Positions 1 through 60,369 are shown, counted from the stretch's first letter. The stretch: DNA of 64,000 nt from Callorhinchus milii (GCF_018977255.1 NW_024704742.1:119910001-119974000), one strand, 5' to 3'. Notes: generated by a model from the letters alone, not told the origin. Numbers and translations are program-made.

Positions 1-666
1 AACCTGAACTCAAAAGCAATTTGTCTCATCATATCCACATATACTTTGCTACAGACGACACTGCTTACATAAAAAAGGTCTAATTGGTGGCAAAACAAGT
101 GTATAAGCAGAGGTCACACAAAATTGATGCTGGAAGCAGCTGGAAAGTACGGAGGACATGAACTGATTGCATTGAGGTGTCAATAAACAAGTCTCACTTC
201 CCATAAATTGAAACATTCTCCGCTGATCATTGTTGAGCAAATAATGGTTGAATTTTGGGTTAAGCCCCTGTGCATAAGAGACTATTAACAAATAGCACAT
301 GCCTATAAAGCGGTATTGTTTTTTAAAAATTACAACAGTTGTTCTGTTGTTGAGAACACAACATTGACTGAATCTTTCAGAATTTCTGTGAGGTAGGACC
401 AGTTATTTTACCCCTTCCATCTCATGCGAGAGGAATCAGTGGAAGCGCCAAGTAACCAGAACTGCCTCTCCTTGAGGAATTTGGTATCAGTTATAGACTA
501 TGATAGACTTGTGTTGAAGGCTGCTCAAGAAGTAGCAATATGTTGACACAATTGGAAAGCTGTTAGTAGAAGGGCTAGACAACCACTGACCCTAAAGATT
601 GAGTCGGCCTGTGCCCAGTTATAATCAAGATCAAGTCAGTCTTATGAGGATTCAGACAGCTGAACC

Positions 667-2452
667 AGGGGGAGGAAGGTGACCAAAGGTACGGTCGAAA
701 ACAAAGGTCTTCAGCCGAGACCTGAAAATAGGAAGAGAGGGGGCGAGGTGAAGGGAGAGAGGAAGGGAGTTCCAGAGCCTCGGGGCATAGTGGCTGAAGG
801 CACAGCCAACGAAGGTGGAGCGGAGGACTCTGGGGACAAGGAGCAGGCCAGATCCGGTGGAACGAAGGCAACGGGCACTGTTGTGAGGAGAGAGGTCAAA
901 GAGGTAGGGGGGTGCAGAGGAGTGGAGGGATTTGAAGACAAGGGTGAAGTTGATCCTCCCTGGGACAGGCAGCCAGTGCAGTCTGGCAAGGACTGGGGTA
1001 ATCGGGTAATGGAGTTTGGTGCGGGTAAGAGTGCGGGCGACAGAGATTTGTATGACCTGAATTTTATGGGTGGTAGTGGAAGGGACACCAGTGAGGAGGG
1101 CGTTTGAATAGTCCAGCCGAGAGGTGACAAAGGCGTGGATGGACCAGGGTTTCAGCGGCTTTTGGAGTGAGATATTGGCGGAGACGGGTGATGCGTCGGA
1201 GGTGGCAGAAAGCGGTACGGGAGAGGAAGGATAATTGGGGGTCGAACCTGACACCGAGGTTGCATGCATGTTCGGAGAGTTTAAGGGGAAGTCGGGTAGG
1301 TGGAGGAGGTGAGAACCGTGAGATTTTAAACGTTGACGAGAGCCAAAGAGTATGGCTTCCGTCTTGTCAACATTTAGCTGAAGGAAATTTGCGCTCATCA
1401 GCCCCTGAGGTCTGACAGACAGACTGACAGAACTTGAGGGGACTGGGGGTGGAAAAGTAGAGTTGGGTATCGTCCATATACATGTGGAAGTGTACCGCAT
1501 GTTTGCAGATGACATCCCCAAGAGGGAGCATATAGATCAGAAAAAGGAGGGGGACAAGGATGGATCCTTGGGGTACCCCACAGGTAATCGGATGAGAGTG
1601 GGAGGAGAAGCCATTTGTGCAAATGTACGGCTGGAGGTTTGTGAGGTAGGACTCGAACCAGGCGAGTGCGGTCCCACTGAGGTGGATGACGGAGGAAAGG
1701 CAGTTGAGGAGGATGGCATGATTGACTGTGTCGAAAGCGGCGGAGAGGTCCAGGAGGACAAGGAGGCAGAGCGAGCCCTGGTCACAGATAGAGGGGATGT
1801 CGTTTGTGACTTTCACAAGTGCAGTCTCTTTACTGTGGGCAGGGTGGAAACCGGACTGGATGGGTTCGAAGATGGAGTGGGAGGAGAGGTGTGCAAGGAG
1901 TTGATTTGCAACAACGCATTCTAGGACTTTTGCGAGGAAGGGCAAGTTTGAGATAGGGCAGTAGTGGCTGGGGTTTGAGGGATCTAGGGAAAGTTTTTTG
2001 AGGAAGGGGGTGATGACAGCAGTTTTGAGGGAGGCAGGGACTGATCCAGAGGAGAGGAACTGGTTGATGACATCAGCCAGCAGTGGGCAGAGGAGGGGGA
2101 GCTGGGTGACCAGCAGGTTGGTGGGGAGGGGGTCGAGGCAGCAGGTGGGTTTCATTGAGGTGATGGTGGGTGAGAGGGAGGAGGAAGAGATGGGGAGGAA
2201 GGAATGTAGGACGGGTTGTCATGGTAGGAGCTGATGATGGGGATGGTGAGGGGGATGGAGAGGAGGTGGTGGTGGGTGACAAGAGGCAGGAGGATGAGGC
2301 TGCCTGGCGGATGTTGTGGATTTTGGATGAAAAGAAGTCCATGACCTCCTCGCACTTGGCGTTGGATGTGAAGATTGAGGAGGCCTGAGGGGGAGCATGG
2401 AGAAGGTAGTGGGTGGTGGAAAAAAGGATTTTAGGATTGTTTTTAGCCTCCA
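667..2452 (-). mobile_element. L2 LINE, 5'-truncated and frameshifted ORF2 (reverse transcriptase)
   Basis: Motifs PISNLPFLAKVLE, QSGF..HS.ETAL, LLDLSAAFDTV, GVPQGSIL, HMYMDDTQLY, SRLDYSN and LHWLP are spread over several frames. Confidence 0.92.
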
Positions 2453-2593
2453 AGATCTCCTGTCTCCACTTCCGATTGGAGTGTAGATGTTTACGACATC
2501 AAAATGTGCACTCCTCTTCTTCCCGCTAAAGCATTAGTTGTGAACTCACTTCCAAGCATTCCTAAAATCTAATAATTTTATACTTAGCAATTA

Positions 2594-6367: not shown

Positions 6368-8492
6368 AACAACAACAACAATATTTCATTTTTAGAGCAT
6401 CTTTCACGTCGGGAGGACGTCCCAAGGCGCTGGACAATTGGGTCGGGACCCGAGCAGGGGGAAAATGGTTAGGGGGAGGGAAGGGAGGGAGCGAGGAGGG
6501 GGTAGAGAGTCGAGAGGGGAGCTGAAGGCACGGTCAAGCAGAAAGGTCTTGAGACCGGCCTTGAAAGGAGGAAAGGGAGGAGGCAAGTCGAAGGCACTGG
6601 GGGTTGGAGTTCCAGAGCCTAGGGGCTGAGAGGCTGAAGGCCCGGCCACCGATGTTAGGGCGGTTGGGGCGGGGGATGTGGAGCAGACCGGAGCCAGAGG
6701 AACGGAGGGTGCGGGCAGGTAGGTAGGGGGATAGTAGGTCGGAGAGGTAGGAGGGAGCAAGGCCGTGAATGGCCTTGTAGGTGAGAATGAGGATCTTGAA
6801 TTTGATCCTCTGGGGGATGGGGAGCCAGTGGAGGCGAGCGAGGGTGGGAGTGATGTGGTCCCGAAGCCTGGTGCGGGACAGTGCACGAGCTGCAGAGTTC
6901 TGAATGATCTGCAGCTTGTGGAGGGAGGTGGCGGGAAGGCCGGCGAGGAGAGAGTTCCCATAGTCCAGCCTTGAGATGATAAAGGCGTGGACCAGAGTTT
7001 CAGCAGCGTGAGGGGTGAGGTAGTGCCGTAGTCTGGCGATATTCCAGAGGTGATGGAAGGCGGTGCCAGTTGTGGCGCGGAAATGAGGAATAAAGGACAG
7101 CTCAGGGTTGAACAAAACGCCGAGGTTCCTGACTGGCTTTGAGAGGTGGAGAGTGCAGCCTTGGATGCTGATGCTGTCAGCGCCTGAGGTGCGGAGGCGC
7201 TAACGCGAACCAATCAGGAGGGCCTCAGTTTTACACACGTTGAGCTGAAGAAAGTTGTCTCTCATCCAGGACTCGATGTCAGACAGGCAGCTGTCAGGAC
7301 ATCGGTGGTCGTGGAGCTGAGGGTAGAGGAGGAAAGGTAGAGTTGGGTGTCATCCGCATACATGTGGAAGTTAACCCCATGTCTGCGGATGATGTCACCA
7401 AGGGGGAGCATATAGAGGGTGAAGAGGAGGGGACCGAGGACAGAGCCCTGAGGGACACCGCACGAGACAGTGCGGGGGTGGAGGAAAAGCCATTTGTGGA
7501 AACAAAATGAAGACGGTGGGAGAGGTACGACCTAAACTACTCAAGGACAGGGCCTTGAAGGTTGAGGTGGGCGGACAAGCAGTGGAGGAGGATAGTGTGG
7601 TCGACCGTATCGAATGCTGCCGATAGGTCGAGGAGGACGAGGAGGCAGAGGGGGCCCTGGTCGCAGATGGTCAAGATGTCACTGGTGACCTTGACCAGGG
7701 CAGTTTCTGTGCTATGGGCAGCACGGAAACCCGACTGGAGGGGTTCGAATAATGCATGGGTGGAGAGGAAACAACTCAGCTGGGAGGCGACAACTCTTTC
7801 AAGGACATTGGACAGGAAGGGGAGGTTGGAGATGGGCCGGTAGCTTGATAGCTGCGACACATCAAGGGAGGGTTTTTTCAAAGTGGGAGTGATGGTGGCA
7901 GTTTTTAGGGGAATGGGAACAGAGCCAGAGGAGAGGGACAGGTTGATGATGTCTGTGAGAAGTGGGGCAAGGAGGTGGAGCTGTGAGATAAGGAGTGGAG
8001 TGGGGATGGGGTCAAGGGAGCAGGTGGTGGGTTTCAGGGACAGGATGAGTTTGGTGACAGAGGGTGGGGAAACAGGTTCGAAGGTGTGTAGGGGAGGATG
8101 GGTAGGAGTTGGAGTGTGGGAGGGAAGGGGTGGGGGTGGGTGGAAGTTCGAGGGGGAGTGATCACGGAGCGGATTCCCTTGATTTTGGATTTAAAGAAAT
8201 CCAGCATCTCCTCGCAGTGAAGGTTGGAGGAGATGACCTGCTCGGGGTGGCGGGGGGGACGGAGGAGTCGGGATGTGGTAGAGAACAGTAGCCTGGGGTT
8301 GTTCTTCGCCTCCAGGATTATCCTGGAGTAGAAGGACAACGTGGCCGAGGTGGAGCGGTAGGTTTTGAGGAGGTCCAGCCAGATTTGTCGGTGGACCGTT
8401 AGGCCAGATTTGAGGCAGGTGCATTCAGCGGCCCGCACCTGGCTCTTCAGTGAGCGGAGGTGGGTGGTGAACCAGGGGGAGGAGCGAGAGTA
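6368..8492 (-). mobile_element. L2 LINE with 3' tail, 5'-truncated and disrupted
   Basis: [36 protein letters not shown] and LHWLP motifs. The 3' end reads AGCGCCTTGGGACGTCCTCCCGACGTGAAAG...(TTG)n. Confidence 0.93.
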
Positions 8493-11350
8493 AGAAGTCA
8501 ACAGTAAAATTGAATGATGATGAATATGTTTGAGTGTACAATAGAGATATAGATTCAGAAGGCCTTTCGGTCCATTTAATCTTATCCGTCAGCAAAACCA
8601 ACACCATCTTTTTCCCAATACCCCATTGAGTCTGTGTACTACCCTCAACCACACTTCCTAGTAACTTGTTCCAACTATTGATTACAGTATACATTAAAAA
8701 AAATTAGTGTCTATCCTGAAATGGTCCTGCACAACTCTAAACCTGTGCTCTCTTATCCTGGTGTCTCAACATATCTGAAAGTATTCTGGTTTAATTTTTT
8801 TCCCCAGATAAGTATCGTGCGTCACAAGTTCTTTTCTCCAGGCATTGTTACTTGTAATTGTTACTTAAAGTAATTGTTACTTGTAGCTCATCCCTTGAAC
8901 ACGGAGAATCAGCTTTGTTTTACGTTTTACGTTTCTACCTTAGCTTACTTCTTAGGCCTGGAAGGTCCCTAAATGCACTACAATCAGAATTGACCCGAGA
9001 GTAGTTTTAATACATCTTTTCAAACTTAAATGAGTGCTGTTTCCAGCTGTTTTCAAAGCATGGTGTAGATGTTGAACGCAAAACTGTTGTGCAATTTGTG
9101 GAAATACAAAACTTTTTTTTTTAACAATGGTAGGGATAATATTGGAGAAATCGTGCAAATGCTATTGTCCTTAATGGAAGAATAGATAATATATTTTGGT
9201 TAGCAGATATCACATGCTCAGATTGAGGAATAATGACAGCAGAACTAGACACCCAGAAGCAAATATCTCATCAAAACAAACTGGATTGCAGGTTAAGAGA
9301 AACAATTCAGTAAAGAAAGAGTGCAGCTAGATCTACTCAAGGTCTAAAGCACATCCAACATATAAATTGTGGTAACTCAAGATATTGTGATCCCTCAACT
9401 ATAGCATTCAGAAACATATGGACACTTTTATAGGTTTGGTTTCAGTACTAGTAAAATAACATGCATCTAATAAATTAAATTATTGCAAATACCTGATCTG
9501 AACAAGAAAAATGCTTTGTAGGCAGCTAATATTCAGTGTTTTAAATTCCACCAAAAAATAACACTCAAATGAGTTTAAAGTTGTCAATATTGTCCCAAAA
9601 ATTGATTGAGACCAATTGAAGTTTTCAATGCAATGAAGCTTGTTACTAGACATTACGTTCTATATACATTCCCTTAAAATCAAGGAAAATCTGGTTAATT
9701 GGAATTCCTCAGTTATCAATCCTCTACTTACGTGGCTACCCGCACAACTGGGGTGCATACTTTTCTTCAAAACGATTAAGGAAAAAAAACACACGAATGA
9801 TTTACGGGCTGCATTTTACAGCATCCGCCACAAACTAGATTTATAAATCTAATCATTCTCAGTTATCCTGTCTCCTGTTGTGAAATAAAGCAAAGTCCTA
9901 TGAAAATTCCATTACAAATGTCATGAAGATAAACAGCCACCCAGTGCTTTGAAGTCCAAAAAATTGCAGTAATATTTTTTAAATAATTGGCTATGGAATT
10001 GAACCAATTTTGACATGACTGAGAAACTTAATGCTTTAAAAATGATTGTTTTATTGAACCCATATGGAACCCACAAAATAGGTTTCAACACTTCAGGTGT
10101 TAATAATTATCATTGCATTTGATAAATCAACTTTCATTTTGGGAGGACGTATCAAACTTTATCATAAATGCCTTAGTTATGGATATGAATATCATGATGA
10201 GTATTCAGCAATTTATCATACTGTTCAAATAACCAAATTGATCTGACCAATACATAGCAAACATACATCATCTCAAAGGTCTGGGTAAAATTTAAAAACA
10301 CATGGTTGGAATGATATTAAAAGTCATTCGGCCCATTAAATAAATTCTCTCCACAGTGCATATAACAATTGCCCATCATGGCTGCAAATCCATTTGTTTG
10401 GTGATGATTTCCCTCCCCCAAGCTTTCTGACCCAAGGGAAAACTTCAGAAGATTAATCTACACTTATGCCACAAATATTCAACTATTAAAATGTGTTAAG
10501 ATAACCAGGCAGGACTAATATTTGATCACAGACCCATGAAAATCAGATGGGGAACAAATGGTCTCTGCTCTAAAAGGCTAAAACAGCTGGAGGAGGGGGA
10601 GTAGAAGGTATGAATCACATGAGGTTTGTGCTTCGATGTATCCAGTGACTTTGATGTGGCAAGCCGGGGAGGGGGGAGAGTCTAAGCAAGAGCATGATCA
10701 AGGTTTTGTTGTAATGCTCATCAAAATCCAAAAGTCAACCAGCATTCAGACTCACATGTTAGGAAATATGGGGAGGGGGAGGAGAGGGTGGAAATTACCA
10801 AAATGAGTTCCAGCTTTAAAGAATGTTCTTATGACAGAATGTTTTGGTTTTGTGAGCCAGGTGTTTCACACATGTGGAAACCGATCACAATGTTGAAGAG
10901 TATCCAAACCAAACAGTGTTCGATTTACAATTGGAAATTTCCATTCATCTGATATTGAGTGTGCACTCCCTCCCTAGAGAGGGACCATGTGTTTTTCCAG
11001 AATTTGAACGTTTATGCGCAATTGGCAAGAGCCAAGGCTTGGGATGTCCACAGTGTGAATTGGGATATGGATGGAAGTTAACGAGCTAAAATGGCAAGTT
11101 TCCCACTGCTTGTCCAGCTAGCATTACTTTATCAGAGTTTGCAAGGATCCCTGCTCCCAGTGGCTGCTCTGTCCTTCCATGTGCTGCTGACAAGCCACAG
11201 CTTCTGGAAGTGAGTTCCACATTTTCAACACCCTCTGTGTAAATATGTTCCTCTTAAAACTCCCCTGTAGATCTGCTACTGGCTCTCTTCTATTGATGGC
11301 CCCTCATTTTGGCAACAAATGAAAACAACCATAATCCAGGGCTCACTGGA

Positions 11351-38789: not shown

Positions 38790-41110
38790 ACATGTTGTCC
38801 CCATATTCAAGAAGGGCAACAGAATTAAACCAGGCAACTACAGTACAGGGCCATTAGCCTGACCTTAATAATAAGAAAAAATATGGAATCAATCATCAGA
38901 AAGGAAGTGGAAGTTTACCTATATAAAAATAATTCATAATTGAGAACCAACACTGGTTCAGAAAGGGTAGGTCTTGTCTGACTAATCTCATTGACTTTTT
39001 TGAGGAAGTGACAACACAAATTGACCATGGAAAGCCACTTGATGTAGTAAATCTAGACTTCTAAAACACGTTTGATAAAACACTTCAAGACACAGACATA
39101 GATTCAAAATTGGCTGAAAAGGAGAAGCAGAGGGTCTTTGTGGGTCAAAAGGTGGGTCAAAATGGAGAGAGGTACTACAACAAAAAGATTACATTTATAT
39201 AGCGCCTTTCACATCGGGAGGACGTCCCAAGGCACTGGACAGTGTACAGCATTTCAGACCCGAGCTGGGGTCAGGAAGGGAGAAGGGAGGGGAAGGGGGT
39301 GACCGATGGCATGGTCGAAGAGGAGGGTTTTGAGGCGGGACTTGAAGGAGACTAAGGAGGGGGAGAGGCGGAGTGATTGGGGGGTGGAATTCCAGAGGTT
39401 GGGGACAGAGTGGCTGAAGGCTCTCCCCACAATGGTGGGGCGAGTGGGTCGGGGAACGTGGAGTAGGCCAGAGCCAGCTGAGTGGAGGGAGCGTGCGGGT
39501 TGGGAGGTCGTACAGGTAGGGTGGGGCGAGGCCATGGAGGGCTTTGTACGTGAGGACCAGGATCTTGAATTGGATCCTCTGAAGGATAGGGAGCCAATGG
39601 AATTGGGCGAGAATTAGGGAGATGGGGTCACGGAGTTTGGTGCGGGAGAGGACACGGGCTGCAGAGTTCTGGATTATCTGCAGCCTGTGGAGGGAGGAGT
39701 TGGGAAGCCGACCAGCTGGGCGTTTGCATAGTTGAGCCTGAAGGCATGAACAAGAGTTTCAGCGGCCTGAGGGGTGAGGTAATGGCGGAGTTGGGCGATG
39801 TTACGGTGGTGAGGGAAGGCAGAGCGGGCCATGGCTTGGATGTGGGGAAGAAAAGACAGTTGAGGGTCGAACAAGACACCCAAGACACCTGGGTTCCTGA
39901 CTGGCTTGGTGAATTATCGTGTGCAACCGTGGAGCTTGATACTGCCAGAGCCCGAGGAGCAGAGGCGCTGTTGCGAGCCAATCAGGAGGGCCTCAGTCTT
40001 GTTCACATTCAACTGTAGGAAATTTGCACTCATCCAGGACTTGATGTCCGACAGGCAGTCTGTCAGGACAGTAGTGGTCCTGGAATAGTGGTCCTGGAGT
40101 TGAGAGTGGATGCAGGAAGATAAGAGTTGGGTGTCATCCGCATACATATGGAAGTTGACCCCATGTCTGTGGACGGTACTTCAGAGGTTTGTCCTGGGGC
40201 CCCATTTGCTCCTCGTATATATTAATGACCTGGATTAGCAGACCCAGTATAAGATTGTGGACACCAAGTTGGGGGAATTGTGGAATCAGAGGAGGCAGCA
40301 AAGGTCCTACAAAGAGAGCTTGATATAATATGCACATGGGCTGATAACTGGCAAATGAAGTTTAATACTGCTCAATGCAAGCTACCACATATAGAGTTCA
40401 AGAATAGGAAACACAATTACTCCATGGATGGGTAAAACTTGCTAAGTTGAAAGATATCTTGGATTGTTAGTTACTTTTCTCTCTTTCTATGTCAAAACAA
40501 AGTGAGGGAGCAATAAACAAGACAAACAGGGTGCTATGCTCTATTGCTGAATCAGTTGAGTTTAGACCCCGAGACATCATTCTCAGTGTATGGTGCTCTG
40601 GTCAGAATGCATTTTTAACCCTGTATACAGTTCTGATCACTGTGACACAAAGGGCTCTCCAGGCCCCAGAGGCAGTGCAGAGGAGAGCAATGAAGTTGAT
40701 CCCCAGCGTTAGAGGAATGAGCTATAAGCAATGACTAGACAAGCTAGTGTGCTTCAGTTTTGAGAGAAGATGACTATGCAGGGATCTCAGAGAAAAAATA
40801 TAAAATTTTAACTTGGATAGAAAAGGTAAACCCAGATCAATATGTATCATGACAGCAGAACATGGGGATATAGGTTTAGAGGTGCAAAGAGCAATTTCAG
40901 GCCAGATACCAGGAAGGTTTTCTGTACACAGCGGTGAGCAACAACTGGAACAGATTTCCAGGAAAGATGGTAAGAGGGCAGGACACGAGATTCATTTAAA
41001 AAGCAGCTTGATGCAGCAGGGAATAAGGGGAAGGAGAGGTTGGGTGCACGTTCTGGAGGGATGAGATCAGACGGGCTGAAGGGCCTTCTTTATCTTAACC
41101 AATCTTATGA
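38790..41110 (+). mobile_element. Degraded CR1 split by a younger L2
   Basis: CR1 blocks on the left (cccatattcaagaaggg, ggtcttgtctgactaatctcattgacttttttgaggaagtgac); reading resumes at ~40175 with gtcctggggcccc..atattaatgacctgga and ends in a CR1 tail. Confidence 0.8.
39177..40174 (-). mobile_element. L2 3' part inserted into CR1
   Basis: [41 protein letters not shown] and an L2 tail at 39177..39240. Confidence 0.9.
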
Positions 41111-45241: not shown

Positions 45242-45558
45242 GTGGAGTCCTGTAGCTCAGTGGTTAGAGCACTCGCTTTGCAAGCGAGAGACCTGAGTTC
45301 AATTCCAGGCAGGGCCAAACCTTGGGCAAGTTTCCTTACTCCACACGCCTAATAATAATCCCTCCAAAACCAAAAACAATAATAAATTGGTCATTTTCAA
45401 TCTACGACTGTTTGTGGGACATTGCTGTGCGCAATTGGCTGCCGCGTTCGCCCACAAATATACAGTCAATTCACTTTACAGTGTGTTCTGTGAAACGCTT
45501 TGGGACGTCCTCCCGACGTGAAAAGCGCTATATCAAATGCAAGGATTATTATTATTAT
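45242..45558 (+). mobile_element. Full-length young SINE: tRNA-Ala(TGC)-like head, partial Deu domain, L2 tail and (TTA)n
   Basis: A box TAGCTCAGTGG, anticodon arm CTCGC-TTTGCAA-GCGAG, B box GTTCAATTCC. The tail GCTTTGGGACGTCCTCCCGACGTGAAAAGCGCTATAT is shared with L2 copies in this window. Confidence 0.92.
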
Positions 45559-58649: not shown

Positions 58650-59670
58650 TTTAAACTGCTTGTTGCTGTATTTGGACATTCTGGAAAGGCAAGATCAAAC
58701 GGGTCAAAGGGCGTCTTCATCTGAACCTCATTTATATCAAGATTTGTCTGGTAATAGATATTGCAGTAGTTTGAAATTAAATATAGCATCTCCAAAGCTC
58801 CAGCGTAAGGCAAACTAATTTATGATATCTTAATAACGAAAGCACCATTGTATTCTTAGACCATCATCTCAGTCAGTCCCAGGTGCTATAACCCCAGTCA
58901 GCTGGAGTAAATGTGCGATCAATGATGCGTTAGAAAAGTACACTCCCAAGTTGATCCTTCAGCTGTGCACAGTCAGAACCACTCCCTCCTCTCTCTCAAC
59001 CAATGAAGGGTCATATTTGCAAGTGAATTTCCACTGAATATATTTGTACAGTACTTAGTTTCCTATGATTACTAACGATCACAAGCAGACTGTTGATTTT
59101 GCAGAGATTCAGTTATTGGGTTTCTAACAATTAAAAAAAAGCTCCCCCTAAACAATGTACTGGTTATTCCCAACATCCACAGAAAGTAGTGGAGTATTCA
59201 ATATTATTCAGATCAAATCAACAATTAGTCTATCATTAACTCTGTCAAAATGTTTTCCTCTCTCAAACGATTGCCAAAGTTACATCAGAAGGGAACTGTA
59301 AATACAAGGTTCGTACAATGAACTCCATCTGGATCTCAGAGTTCAGATACCATTCATAATCCATGAACAAAGAGCAAAATTCATCCAAAGTCACCTGAAG
59401 TCGAATGAATTACTGCTATGCAATTCACTTCCAGTACCCATTCTATACAATGTACATTACCTGCTAATTACTGTGTGTAATACCACTGAAGACAAGTTAG
59501 TCAAGTTCCACCCAGAGGACTGTCTATAAGTACTTTTGGCAGGACACATTGAATCTGAACAACAAGAACAGGTTTTCGTTTAGTCTAAAAAAACAATTCA
59601 CTGAATCCGAAAATTCATAGAGGCCGTGTAAATCAAAACAACATTTAATATCAAACTCAGTGTCCTGTGA

Positions 59671-59876
59671 CCAAAACACAAAATACTGCAGATGCTGGAA
59701 TCTGAAACAAAAACAGAGATAACTGGGAAAATTCAGCAGGTCAGGCAGCATCTATGGAGAAAGGAAAGTGAGTTCTGACGAAGGGTTGTGGACCCGAAAC
59801 GTTGACTCACTTTCCTTTCTCCATAGATGCTGCCTGACCTGCTGAGTTTTCCCAGTTCTCTCTGTTTTTGTTTCAG
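59671..59876 (+). mobile_element. Short Penelope-like (PLE) inverted terminal-repeat remnant / non-autonomous element
   Basis: 73-bp inverted arms (59702..59774 and 59804..59876), hammerhead motif in the loop, and flanking 14-bp direct repeat TCAGTGTCCTGTGA. Confidence 0.75.
59768..59810 (+). ncRNA. Minimal type-I hammerhead ribozyme motif
   Basis: GTGAGTT-CTGACGA-A-GGGT(TGTGG)ACCC-GAAAC-GTT-GACTCAC: stem I, CUGANGA box, stem II, GAAA box and loop-less palindromic stem III. Confidence 0.75.
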
Positions 59877-60369
59877 TGTCCTGTGAGTTTGACATTCTCA
59901 ATTTGGAGACTTTCAACATGGCAATCCATTAATTCTTAAGAAATTTAAAAAAACTGGCTGTCAATACCGTAATTGCTTTACAGCAGGTAAAGATAATGCC
60001 ACCTATAAAATCATTATCACCTACTATGCTACCTACAAATTCTGCATTTTTAAATATGAATCGTTCAAAAGCAATAGTTTTTGAAGTGCAAAATAAAATG
60101 CAGTTCAACTATACATAGTCTCCATAGTTTATTGATTAGCGGGGGAAATTAAATGTCTTTAAATTAAAATAGACCCCCATTTGATAACTAATCAGAAAAA
60201 AAATTCAAAAAAAAGTAAATGGCCATTAAATTATTCACAAATTCATTAGGTACAAACTTTGACAAATCAACTCCAAAAAAAAATGCATTTCTACCACACT
60301 TTATCCAGATGAGTTTACACACTTTGTATATTGATCAGTTATTCACACCTTCATTACCTCCCAGTTAAG

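What the first reader, a model, noticed from the sequence alone, without database searches (positions are those of the whole stretch)
59657..59886. Mobile hairpin whose loop is a minimal hammerhead ribozyme (Penelope/retrozyme-like), with a 14-bp target duplication
Seen: arms 59702..59774 and 59804..59876 are reverse complements over 73 bp with 3 differences, two of which would be G-U pairs in the plus-strand RNA. The 29-nt loop is CTGACGA-A-GGGT-TGTGG-ACCC-GAAAC-GTT. TCAGTGTCCTGTGA occurs at 59657..59670 and 59873..59886. Known: CUGANGA + stem II + GAAA + NUH is the hammerhead core, and minimal hammerheads with a loop-less palindromic stem III (here AACGUU) occur in Penelope-like element terminal repeats, where they are thought to act as dimers. 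Inference: this is a recent, ~200-nt, non-coding PLE-mobilised element in which stem I has been extended into a long duplex. Predicted cleavage is after U59803. The motif is antisense to ERBIN, so it would not cut the pre-mRNA, but the pre-mRNA would still carry a ~73-bp hairpin that ADAR or Dicer could act on.
Basis: partly seen in the sequence, partly recalled or inferred. Interest (0 to 1): 0.8.

Follow-up and report, generated by a model that had tools for sequence, protein, structure and literature searches.

The report
Truncated fold-back Penelope-like retroelement copy
The hairpin with a hammerhead motif in its loop is real, but it is an ordinary dead-on-arrival insertion of a Penelope-like jumping gene, whose way of integrating often leaves two shortened copies head to head, not a new kind of mobile ribozyme.

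Summary
There are 73-bp arms with 3 differences, a 29-nt loop with an intact minimal hammerhead core, and a perfect 14-bp flanking duplication.

The element is two 5'-truncated copies of the 3' terminus of a Penelope-like element (PLE), joined head to head. An open frame with reverse-transcriptase and GIY-YIG-like motifs sits about 200 nt upstream of the same terminus elsewhere in the genome.

I classified 60 hammerhead-motif sites from an unbiased sample:
- 27 have an inverted upstream copy, and the junction falls at many different positions.
- In 25 of those 27, exactly one arm carries the roughly 34-nt "tail".

Source variants are mirrored in both arms. The fold-backs are therefore made anew at each integration and are not copied from a hairpin master. 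The long "stem I" and the "hammerhead as loop" geometry of this copy are accidents of where the two copies met.

Inverted 5'-truncated copies, a one-sided tail, variable duplications and a minimal hammerhead in the repeat are all published PLE traits (PMC8557442, PMC3846280, PMC4209133).

- No Rfam hammerhead model matches.
- Only 13 of 30 similar copies keep the core.
- There is no tandem, retrozyme-like layout.

This scan reached the same reading on other genomes. Interest is low.

The parts
59657..59670 (.). Left copy of the target-site duplication (TCAGTGTCCTGTGA)
   Evidence: It is an exact 14-nt direct repeat of 59873-59886. Among 24 similar fold-back copies that the script could score, 21 have flanking repeats of 8 to 16 nt.
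59671..59705 (-). The 'tail': a 31- to 35-nt extension found on this arm only. On the minus strand it is the far 3' end of the PLE terminus.
   Evidence: This end is constant to within a few bases in the 30 aligned copies. Linear copies end either before or after this stretch. Exactly one arm carries it in 25 of 27 inverted pairs. A one-sided tail of 30 to 40 bp is a published PLE trait (PMC8557442, PMC3846280, passages read).
59706..59773 (-). Inverted arm: a 5'-truncated antisense copy of the PLE terminus. It stops one base past the predicted hammerhead cut site.
   Evidence: It is the reverse complement of 59805-59872. In other insertions the inner end of this arm falls at many positions.
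59772..59872 (+). Sense arm: the PLE terminus from 3 nt upstream of the hammerhead core to the tail-less end. It shares GT (59772-59773) with the inverted arm as junction microhomology.
   Evidence: In the sample, 31 of 60 motif sites have the sense copy starting 1 to 7 nt upstream of the core, and 27 of those start at 3 or 4 nt. The right end is slightly ragged among copies.
59775..59803 (+). Minimal hammerhead motif: CUGACGA, one extra A, a 5-bp stem II with a 3-nt loop, GAAA, then C-G-U-U. The predicted cut is after U59803.
   Evidence: Read directly from the sequence. The pattern occurs 713 times forward and 708 times reverse in the genome, with 0 for the control. It fits the features listed for PLE minimal hammerheads in PMC4209133. 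No Rfam hammerhead model matches it.
59873..59886 (.). Right copy of the target-site duplication
   Evidence: The first 4 bases could equally belong to the element.

Best explanation
This is one dead-on-arrival insertion of a Penelope-like element (PLE).

Inferred from the anatomy and from published biochemistry: the PLE enzyme nicked the two target strands 10 to 14 bp apart. It copied only the last 100 to 140 nt of PLE RNA, the stretch that runs from the hammerhead to the sites where reverse transcription starts. It left two such copies head to head.

Shown here:
- One copy starts at the outer start site and so carries the roughly 34-nt tail. The other starts at the inner site.
- The sense copy runs to a preferred 5' end 3 nt before the hammerhead core.
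- The inverted copy stops 29 nt short of that, so the hammerhead core is left unpaired as the loop.

The hammerhead is the parent element's own minimal ribozyme, carried along as a passenger. In this context it has no helix III partner, and nothing indicates that it cuts.

The insert probably has no function. Any transcript through it would carry a duplex of about 73 bp.
For: 1. The parent shares the terminus. In L111 a 470-aa open frame with an RT motif (YIDD) and a GIY-YIG-like motif is followed, about 200 nt later, by the same hammerhead, arm and tail. The terminus there carries this subfamily's variants.
   - Pfam gives RVT_1 at E = 6.9e-5. It gives GIY-YIG at E = 0.001 and 0.13. All are below the curated cut-offs.
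   - The nearest clusters in the ESM Atlas carry RVT_1, GIY-YIG and HTH_animal.
2. I took an unbiased sample of the first 60 motif sites on contig 1. It held 61 motifs, of which the script classified 60.
   - 27 have an adjacent inverted copy, with variable inner ends.
   - The tail is on exactly one arm in 25 of the 27, on both in 0, and on neither in 2 (one of those two was cut by my search window).
   - Among single copies, 15 have the tail and 18 do not.
3. In 29 aligned fold-backs there are 13 variants mirrored in both arms, against 138 single-arm variants. My estimate of the chance expectation for mirrored variants is under 1. The majority-rule arms are perfectly complementary, 68 of 68.
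4. Flanking duplications vary from 8 to 16 nt.
5. All 6 close pairs in the list are head to head.
6. The published PLE layout matches: an inverted 5'-truncated copy at the 5' end, a 30-40-bp tail at one end only, and the hammerhead in the repeat (PMC8557442 and PMC3846280, passages read). The purified enzyme of an anole PLE cleaves and extends both target strands and starts at two adjacent internal sites (PMC11167929, main text read).
Against: - The Pfam matches to RT and GIY-YIG are all below the curated cut-offs, and no solved structure matched.
- I did not recover a full-length element, so the terminus is tied to 5'-truncated coding fragments only.
- The 30 copies most similar to the window share a similar junction within about 15 nt. 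That could also fit some copying from a fold-back template. They were, however, selected for similarity to the query.
- How the two copies are joined (priming on both strands or self-priming) is not shown by any result here.
Confidence: 0.88

Rival explanations
1. This is a non-autonomous hairpin retroposon family. A fold-back master RNA, with the hammerhead as its loop and stem I extended into a long duplex, is transcribed and copied in trans by PLE enzymes.
For: - The similarity search gave 2183 first-look candidates. The 40 that were scored are mostly about 200 nt long and 86-95% identical to the window copy.
- In 30 aligned copies both outer ends and the rough position of the junction are similar.
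Against: - Those 30 copies were selected by similarity to the query.
- In the unbiased sample the inner end of the inverted arm ranges from 32 nt upstream of the core to 111 nt downstream of its first base, and the tail sits on either arm (13 against 12).
- Variants are mirrored in both arms far more often than chance allows. A hairpin master would not produce that.
- In most of the 30 copies the inverted arm runs further into the hammerhead. It then pairs with the hammerhead's 3' half and masks it.
Confidence: 0.06
2. This is an exapted or functional RNA hairpin at this locus. It could be a self-cleaving ribozyme, or a precursor of small RNAs or an ADAR target, acting within the host gene's transcript.
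For: - The core nucleotides are intact in this copy.
- The duplex of about 73 bp is very stable.
- Rfam microRNA-precursor models give sub-threshold matches, for example 44.6 bits against a gathering score of 73.
Against: - The microRNA matches are generic long-hairpin matches, all well below their gathering scores.
- Only 13 of 30 similar copies keep the core, which is what neutral decay looks like.
- The predicted lowest-energy fold pairs G5-G8 of the core with C15.2-U17, which is not the active fold.
- Published PLE minimal hammerheads cut poorly even as dimers, or need the element's own protein (PMC4209133, PMC11167929).
Confidence: 0.04
3. This is a miniature inverted-repeat DNA transposon (MITE or fold-back element) that happens to contain a hammerhead-like string.
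For: It has long terminal inverted repeats and a flanking direct repeat.
Against: - The duplication length varies from 8 to 16 nt between copies.
- The ends are asymmetric, with the tail on one arm only.
- Single, non-inverted copies of the same sequence are common. Some continue upstream into a 3' untranslated region, and a few into a GIY-YIG-type coding remnant. In L111 an RT plus GIY-YIG frame lies upstream.
Confidence: 0.01

Closest known systems
Canonical endonuclease-positive Penelope-like element insertion unit: pseudo-LTR, adjacent inverted 5'-truncated copy, one-sided 30-40-bp tail (Craig et al. 2021, PMC8557442; Arkhipova et al. 2013, PMC3846280)
   Same: Head-to-head inverted copies, a tail at one end only, short target duplications of variable length, the hammerhead in the repeat, and an RT plus GIY-YIG parent.
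   Different: This is an extreme truncation. Both copies keep only about 100 to 140 nt, so the whole insert is a 202-nt hairpin with no coding sequence and no direct repeat.
Minimal hammerhead of metazoan PLEs (Cervera and de la Pena 2014, PMC4209133). Dimer cleavage is reported by Lunse et al. 2016, which I know only through the review PMC6765202; the paper itself is not held.
   Same: CUGANGA and GAAA boxes, one extra base between A9 and G10.1, a G10.1-C11.1 pair, no helix III, and a palindromic C-G at 15.2/16.2.
   Different: - Stem II is 5 bp here. It is 7-8 bp in the Schistosoma families described there.
- In this copy the flanking sequence pairs over 73 bp because of the inverted copy.
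- Activity was not tested.
PAc, the Poseidon-type PLE of the green anole studied in vitro (Frangieh et al. 2024, PMC11167929)
   Same: - The hammerhead lies roughly 75 to 110 nt upstream of two alternative ends. These correspond to the two internal start sites of reverse transcription that define the tail.
- Both target strands are extended.
- Uncleaved RNA is the template.
   Different: - The family and host are different.
- The sequence at the start sites here is GU-rich in the element's sense, whereas an AC-rich stem-loop is reported there.
- No biochemistry was done here.
Non-LTR retrozymes of animals (PMC7229834, search listing only; bioRxiv 10.64898/2026.07.22.740005, abstract and passages read)
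   Same: A hammerhead-bearing, non-coding sequence related to PLE repeats.
   Different: Retrozymes are head-to-tail tandem arrays that give circular RNAs. Here no same-strand neighbour lies within 1 kb among the 100 listed motif sites.

Membership tests
Penelope-like element (EN+) insertion | A single ORF with a reverse transcriptase followed by a GIY-YIG endonuclease, upstream of the same terminus | tested here: met
   - L111 has a 470-aa frame with YIDD and a GIY-YIG-like motif about 200 nt upstream of the same hammerhead, arm and tail.
- RVT_1 scores E = 6.9e-5, 23.1 bits against a cut-off of 29.6.
- GIY-YIG scores E = 0.001, 19.8 bits against a cut-off of 22.6.
- The nearest ESM Atlas clusters carry both families.
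- The Pfam scores are below the curated cut-offs, so this feature is met at motif level only.
Penelope-like element (EN+) insertion | An inverted 5'-truncated copy adjoining the 5' end | tested here: met
   The window copy has one. So do 27 of 60 sampled motif sites.
Penelope-like element (EN+) insertion | A 30-40-bp tail at one end only | tested here: met
   In the window the extension lies at 59671-59705 and is absent from the right arm. The tail is one-sided in 25 of 27 inverted pairs.
Penelope-like element (EN+) insertion | A short target-site duplication of variable length | tested here: met
   It is 14 bp here. It is 8 to 16 nt in 21 of 24 scored copies.
PLE minimal hammerhead (descriptor of PMC4209133) | Conserved core (C3-A9, G12-A14, A15.1, U16.1, H17), an extra base after A9, a G10.1-C11.1 pair, a palindromic 15.2/16.2, no helix III | tested here: met
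   Read from 59775-59803 and compared with the features named in the paper's text.
PLE minimal hammerhead (descriptor of PMC4209133) | Self-cleavage, as a dimer or with the help of a protein | not testable with these tools
Indirect evidence comes from a genome count. The first 19 nt after the predicted cut site are preceded by the element's own TT in 3224 copies. In only 14 are both preceding bases something other than T. Cleaved RNA has therefore left almost no 5' ends in the genome.
Rfam hammerhead families (types I, II, III, HH9, HH10; names recalled) | A match to a covariance model | tested here: not met
   No hammerhead family matched among 21 hits at E up to 10 over 59400-60200. None reached a gathering score anywhere in the window. 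This is expected, because those models include a helix III.
Non-LTR retrozyme | Head-to-tail tandem repeats, each with a hammerhead | tested here: not met
   None of the 100 listed motif sites has a same-strand neighbour within 1 kb. The only two close pairs are on opposite strands (read by eye).
MITE / fold-back DNA transposon | Symmetric terminal inverted repeats and a duplication of fixed length | tested here: not met
   The tail is asymmetric and the duplication length varies.
microRNA precursor families (Rfam MIR1507, MIR533, mir-3202 and others) | A score at or above the gathering threshold | tested here: not met
   The best score is 44.6 bits against a threshold of 73.

The most novel reading that the evidence does not exclude
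The palindromic helix III of the minimal hammerhead may serve mainly to pair two PLE template RNAs at their extreme 5' ends, not to cut RNA.

Under this reading a dimeric enzyme primes one RNA from each target strand, using one of the two start sites on each. The two cDNAs then meet at the paired hammerheads and are joined head to head.

Four results here would fit:
- the strict one-tail rule, 25 of 27;
- 31 of 60 sense copies starting within 7 nt upstream of the core, 27 of them at 3 or 4 nt;
- 11 of the 27 inverted arms ending between 5 nt upstream and 18 nt downstream of the first core base;
- the near absence of copies that begin at the predicted cut site, 14 against 3224.
Probability: 0.12. 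Interest if true: 0.55.

Novelty: new member of a known kind. Interest (0 to 1): 0.2.

Why it matters
For this locus it matters little. This is one decayed copy among thousands of a known kind of retroelement insertion.

The family as a whole is a large natural record of PLE integration events. Several counts made here bear on how these poorly understood elements integrate:
- about half of the hammerhead-bearing copies are head-to-head pairs;
- the tail is on exactly one arm;
- there is a sharp preferred 5' end 3 nt before the hammerhead;
- almost no copies start at the predicted ribozyme cut.

They also agree with the in vitro finding that uncleaved RNA is the template (PMC11167929).

For annotators: short hairpins with hammerhead motifs in such genomes should be masked as PLE fragments. 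They should not be called ribozyme genes or microRNA precursors.

Tried and rejected
- **Rfam scans.** I ran one at E up to 10 over 801 bases and one at gathering scores over the whole window. Neither found a hammerhead family. They found only sub-threshold microRNA, snoRNA and other matches, plus one tRNA at 45246-45317.
- **First motif scans.** The scan of the window used the wrong spacing and found only chance matches. A shorter one was one base too wide and gave 18 hits. The corrected pattern gave 1421.
- **Upstream coding sequence.** I read 7 kb upstream of 20 long linear copies. Shared sequence ends within 150 to 700 nt, and only a few copies reach a GIY-YIG remnant.
- **Solved structures.** The 470-aa frame matched no solved structure by sequence.
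- **Sequencing runs.**
  - No RNA holder is listed.
  - All four runs laid are contigs, so nothing can be said about expression, editing or RNA ends.
  - No contig joining 59670 to 59887 (an empty site) appears among the 15 joints shown. A further 45 joints were not shown, so an empty allele is not excluded.
- **Papers.** Lunse et al. 2016 is not held. A search for 'Penelope', 'hammerhead' and 'shark' found nothing on cartilaginous-fish PLE hammerheads.
- **Earlier notes.** This scan holds no notes for this window.
- **ERBIN.** I did not test that the host gene is ERBIN or which strand it is on. ORFs of 130 aa or more in the window are mostly retroelement-like (by eye).
- **Stem II covariation within the family.** It is not informative. 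The variation in the listed matches is mostly CG to TG or CA (by eye).
- **Fold-back master hypothesis.** Considered and rejected; see the rival explanations.

Full report
**1. The observation**

The sequence is as described.
- Arms 59702-59774 and 59804-59876 are reverse complements over 73 nt with three differences. One is a U/C mismatch (59720/58858 is written here as 59720 against 59858) and two would be U-G pairs in plus-strand RNA. The repeat finder extends the arms to 77 nt at 95%.
- The 29-nt loop, 59775-59803, holds CUGACGA, one extra A, a 5-bp stem II with a GUG loop, GAAA and then C-G-U-U. Every conserved hammerhead core position is present, and the predicted cut is after U59803.
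- TCAGTGTCCTGTGA flanks the insert on both sides.
- The insert folds at -139 kcal/mol, against -49.9 +/- 4.5 for shuffles (z = -19.7).

**2. It is one copy of a very large family**

The window's own genome is G000, 991.5 Mb. Earlier notes of this scan call it a cartilaginous fish; I did not check that.
- A similarity search gave 2183 first-look candidates. Forty were scored, and most are about 200 nt long and 86-95% identical.
- A strict pattern for the motif (both core boxes, fixed spacing and the first bases after the cut) occurs 713 times forward and 708 times reverse. The reversed control gives 0.
- The 21 nt spanning the cut site and the start of the arm occur 3224 times.

**3. Anatomy from 30 similar copies**
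- In the window's orientation the left end is constant to within a few bases.
- The right end is slightly ragged, and two copies are cut shorter.
- The centre is the most variable part.
- Of the 24 copies the script could score, 21 carry flanking direct repeats of 8 to 16 nt. Three of the 30 (L007, L009, L011) share their flanks and so are one insertion that was later duplicated.
- The left arm is about 34 nt longer than the right.

**4. Linear copies and the parent**

The same sequence also occurs as single, non-inverted copies. These end either at the position of the right arm's end or about 34 nt further on, at the position of the left arm's outer end.

Twenty long copies share up to about 700 nt upstream. 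A few of them reach a coding remnant with a GIY-YIG-type motif; Pfam gives GIY-YIG at E = 0.001, below its cut-off.

A search with that coding piece gave 1148 first-look candidates. Two of the matching regions were fetched and read:
- In L111, a 470-aa open frame carries an RT motif (YIDD), a cysteine-rich linker and a GIY-YIG-like motif. About 200 nt after its stop comes the same hammerhead, arm and tail, with the variants typical of the window's subfamily.
- In L112, a 342-aa frame matches Pfam RVT_1 at E = 6.9e-5, or 23.1 bits against a cut-off of 29.6.

The nearest ESM Atlas clusters carry RVT_1, GIY-YIG and HTH_animal (score 0.97). An RT fused to a C-terminal GIY-YIG endonuclease defines canonical Penelope-like elements (PMC8557442, passages read). 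The copies I read are 5'-truncated fragments. I did not look for, or single out, intact ones.

**5. The fold-back is made at integration and is not inherited**

To avoid the bias of a similarity search, I fetched the first 60 motif sites listed on contig 1. They hold 61 motifs, and the script classified 60 of them; it left L087 out.
- 27 have an inverted copy directly upstream. By eye, the two L045 motifs and L087 are further head-to-head cases.
- The inner end of the inverted copy ranges from 32 nt upstream of the core to 111 nt downstream of its first base. In L043 the inverted piece is only about 25 nt of tail. In L053 and L088 both arms hold a complete hammerhead.
- The tail is on the inverted arm in 13 pairs, on the sense arm in 12, on neither in 2, and on both in 0. 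Among single copies, 15 have the tail and 18 do not.
- In 29 aligned fold-backs (L029 was left out because it lies the other way round), the majority-rule arms are perfectly complementary, 68 of 68. Thirteen variants are mirrored in both arms of a copy, against 138 single-arm variants. By my estimate, fewer than one mirrored pair is expected by chance.

Both arms of a copy therefore derive from the same template sequence. A hairpin master would not give mirrored variants or junctions this variable.

In the window copy, the inverted arm happens to stop one base past the predicted cut. The two arms share GT at 59772-59773. This is why the whole core is left as the loop and the arms look like a long stem I. 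In most of the 30 similar copies the inverted arm runs further and pairs with the 3' half of the hammerhead.

**6. Comparison with what is known**

All of these traits are published for PLEs:
- An inverted pseudo-LTR, a 31-bp tail and duplications of 8 to 10 bp in rotifer elements, with self-priming discussed as the cause (PMC3846280, passages read).
- Minimal hammerheads without helix III in the repeats of metazoan PLEs. They have an extra base after A9, a G10.1-C11.1 pair and a palindromic 15.2/16.2, and pairs of motifs 100 to 700 bp apart on opposite strands were noted. Cleavage in vitro is poor (PMC4209133, parts 1 and 2 of 4 read).
- A purified anole PLE enzyme cleaves and extends both target strands. 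It starts reverse transcription at two adjacent internal sites whose spacing is the tail. It assists hammerhead cleavage, and it inserts uncleaved RNA equally well (PMC11167929, main text read).

The two alternative ends seen here match that two-site picture.

Rfam's hammerhead models do not match, which is expected for a motif that lacks helix III.

A retrozyme-like tandem layout is absent. Among the 100 listed motif sites, the only two neighbour pairs within 1 kb lie on opposite strands. All 6 close pairs in the list are head to head.

**7. Does the ribozyme matter here?**
- Only 13 of the 30 similar copies keep the core pattern.
- By eye, the variation in the list is mostly CG to TG or CA.
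- The first 19 nt after the predicted cut are preceded by the element's own TT in 3224 copies. In only 14 are both preceding bases something other than T. Hardly any copy starts at the cut, so cleaved RNA was not a common template.
- The predicted lowest-energy fold of the insert pairs part of the core with C15.2-U17.

**8. Age and fixation**

The window copy differs from the majority of the 30 copies at 5 of 201 aligned positions, plus 8 indel columns. Its arms differ at 3 of 73 positions.

Four runs of the same organism label were laid, as contigs, from two studies. Left-flank contigs run 24 nt or more into the insert in 4 of 4 runs, and right-flank contigs do so in 3 of 4. No empty-site joint is among those shown. 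"Recent" is therefore not supported, though it is not excluded in evolutionary terms.

**9. Verdict**

The hairpin is real and correctly tied to PLEs. It is a routine by-product of PLE integration, not a new mobile ribozyme.

Two earlier follow-ups of this scan reached the same reading on other genomes (e1-7788964 and e1-7790974). I tested it independently here.

Noticed in passing
window 59772 (3 nt before the hammerhead core); loci L031-L090: There is a sharp preferred 5' end. In 31 of 60 sampled motif sites the sense copy starts 1 to 7 nt before the core, and 27 of those start at 3 or 4 nt. Contigs from sequencing runs break to unrelated, A/T-rich sequence at 59772-59773: 62 and 37 contigs in run X1. 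Long copies carry a TATA-like TTAAAAG about 30 nt upstream, and also a pyrimidine tract ending in CAG directly before this point (by eye). The end may be a transcription start in the repeat, but the cause is open.
   Followed up: partly
G000, genome-wide: Almost no copies begin at the predicted hammerhead cut. Both bases before it are non-T in 14 copies, against 3224 that keep the element's TT there. This is genomic support for uncleaved RNA as the template.
   Followed up: yes
loci L031-L090: In head-to-head pairs the roughly 34-nt tail is on exactly one arm in 25 of 27, and never on both. About half of single copies have it (15 of 33). The literature says the tail is 'often' one-sided. Here it is close to a rule.
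   Followed up: partly
window 45246-45317, plus strand: A tRNA-like sequence scores 54.1 bits in Rfam. From the printed alignment, the anticodon loop reads as a Cys-type GCA, by eye. It may be a tRNA gene or the head of a tRNA-derived SINE.
   Followed up: no
G000 C17: 5696214, 5722484, 5750038 (L009, L007, L011): Three fold-back copies have identical flanks about 26-28 kb apart. This is one insertion carried along by a later segmental triplication.
   Followed up: no
window 652-2498, 6404-8588 and 39195-39758, minus strand: There are long open frames with reverse-transcriptase-like motifs, for example a YMDD-type box. Their recurring C-terminal stretches also turn up in other loci, and they look like LINE fragments (by eye).
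   Followed up: no
L025 2243-3055; L045; L081: Larger head-to-head pairs of the same element have arms of 200 to 300 nt that include the 3' untranslated region. The 202-nt hairpin is the short end of a continuous range.
   Followed up: partly
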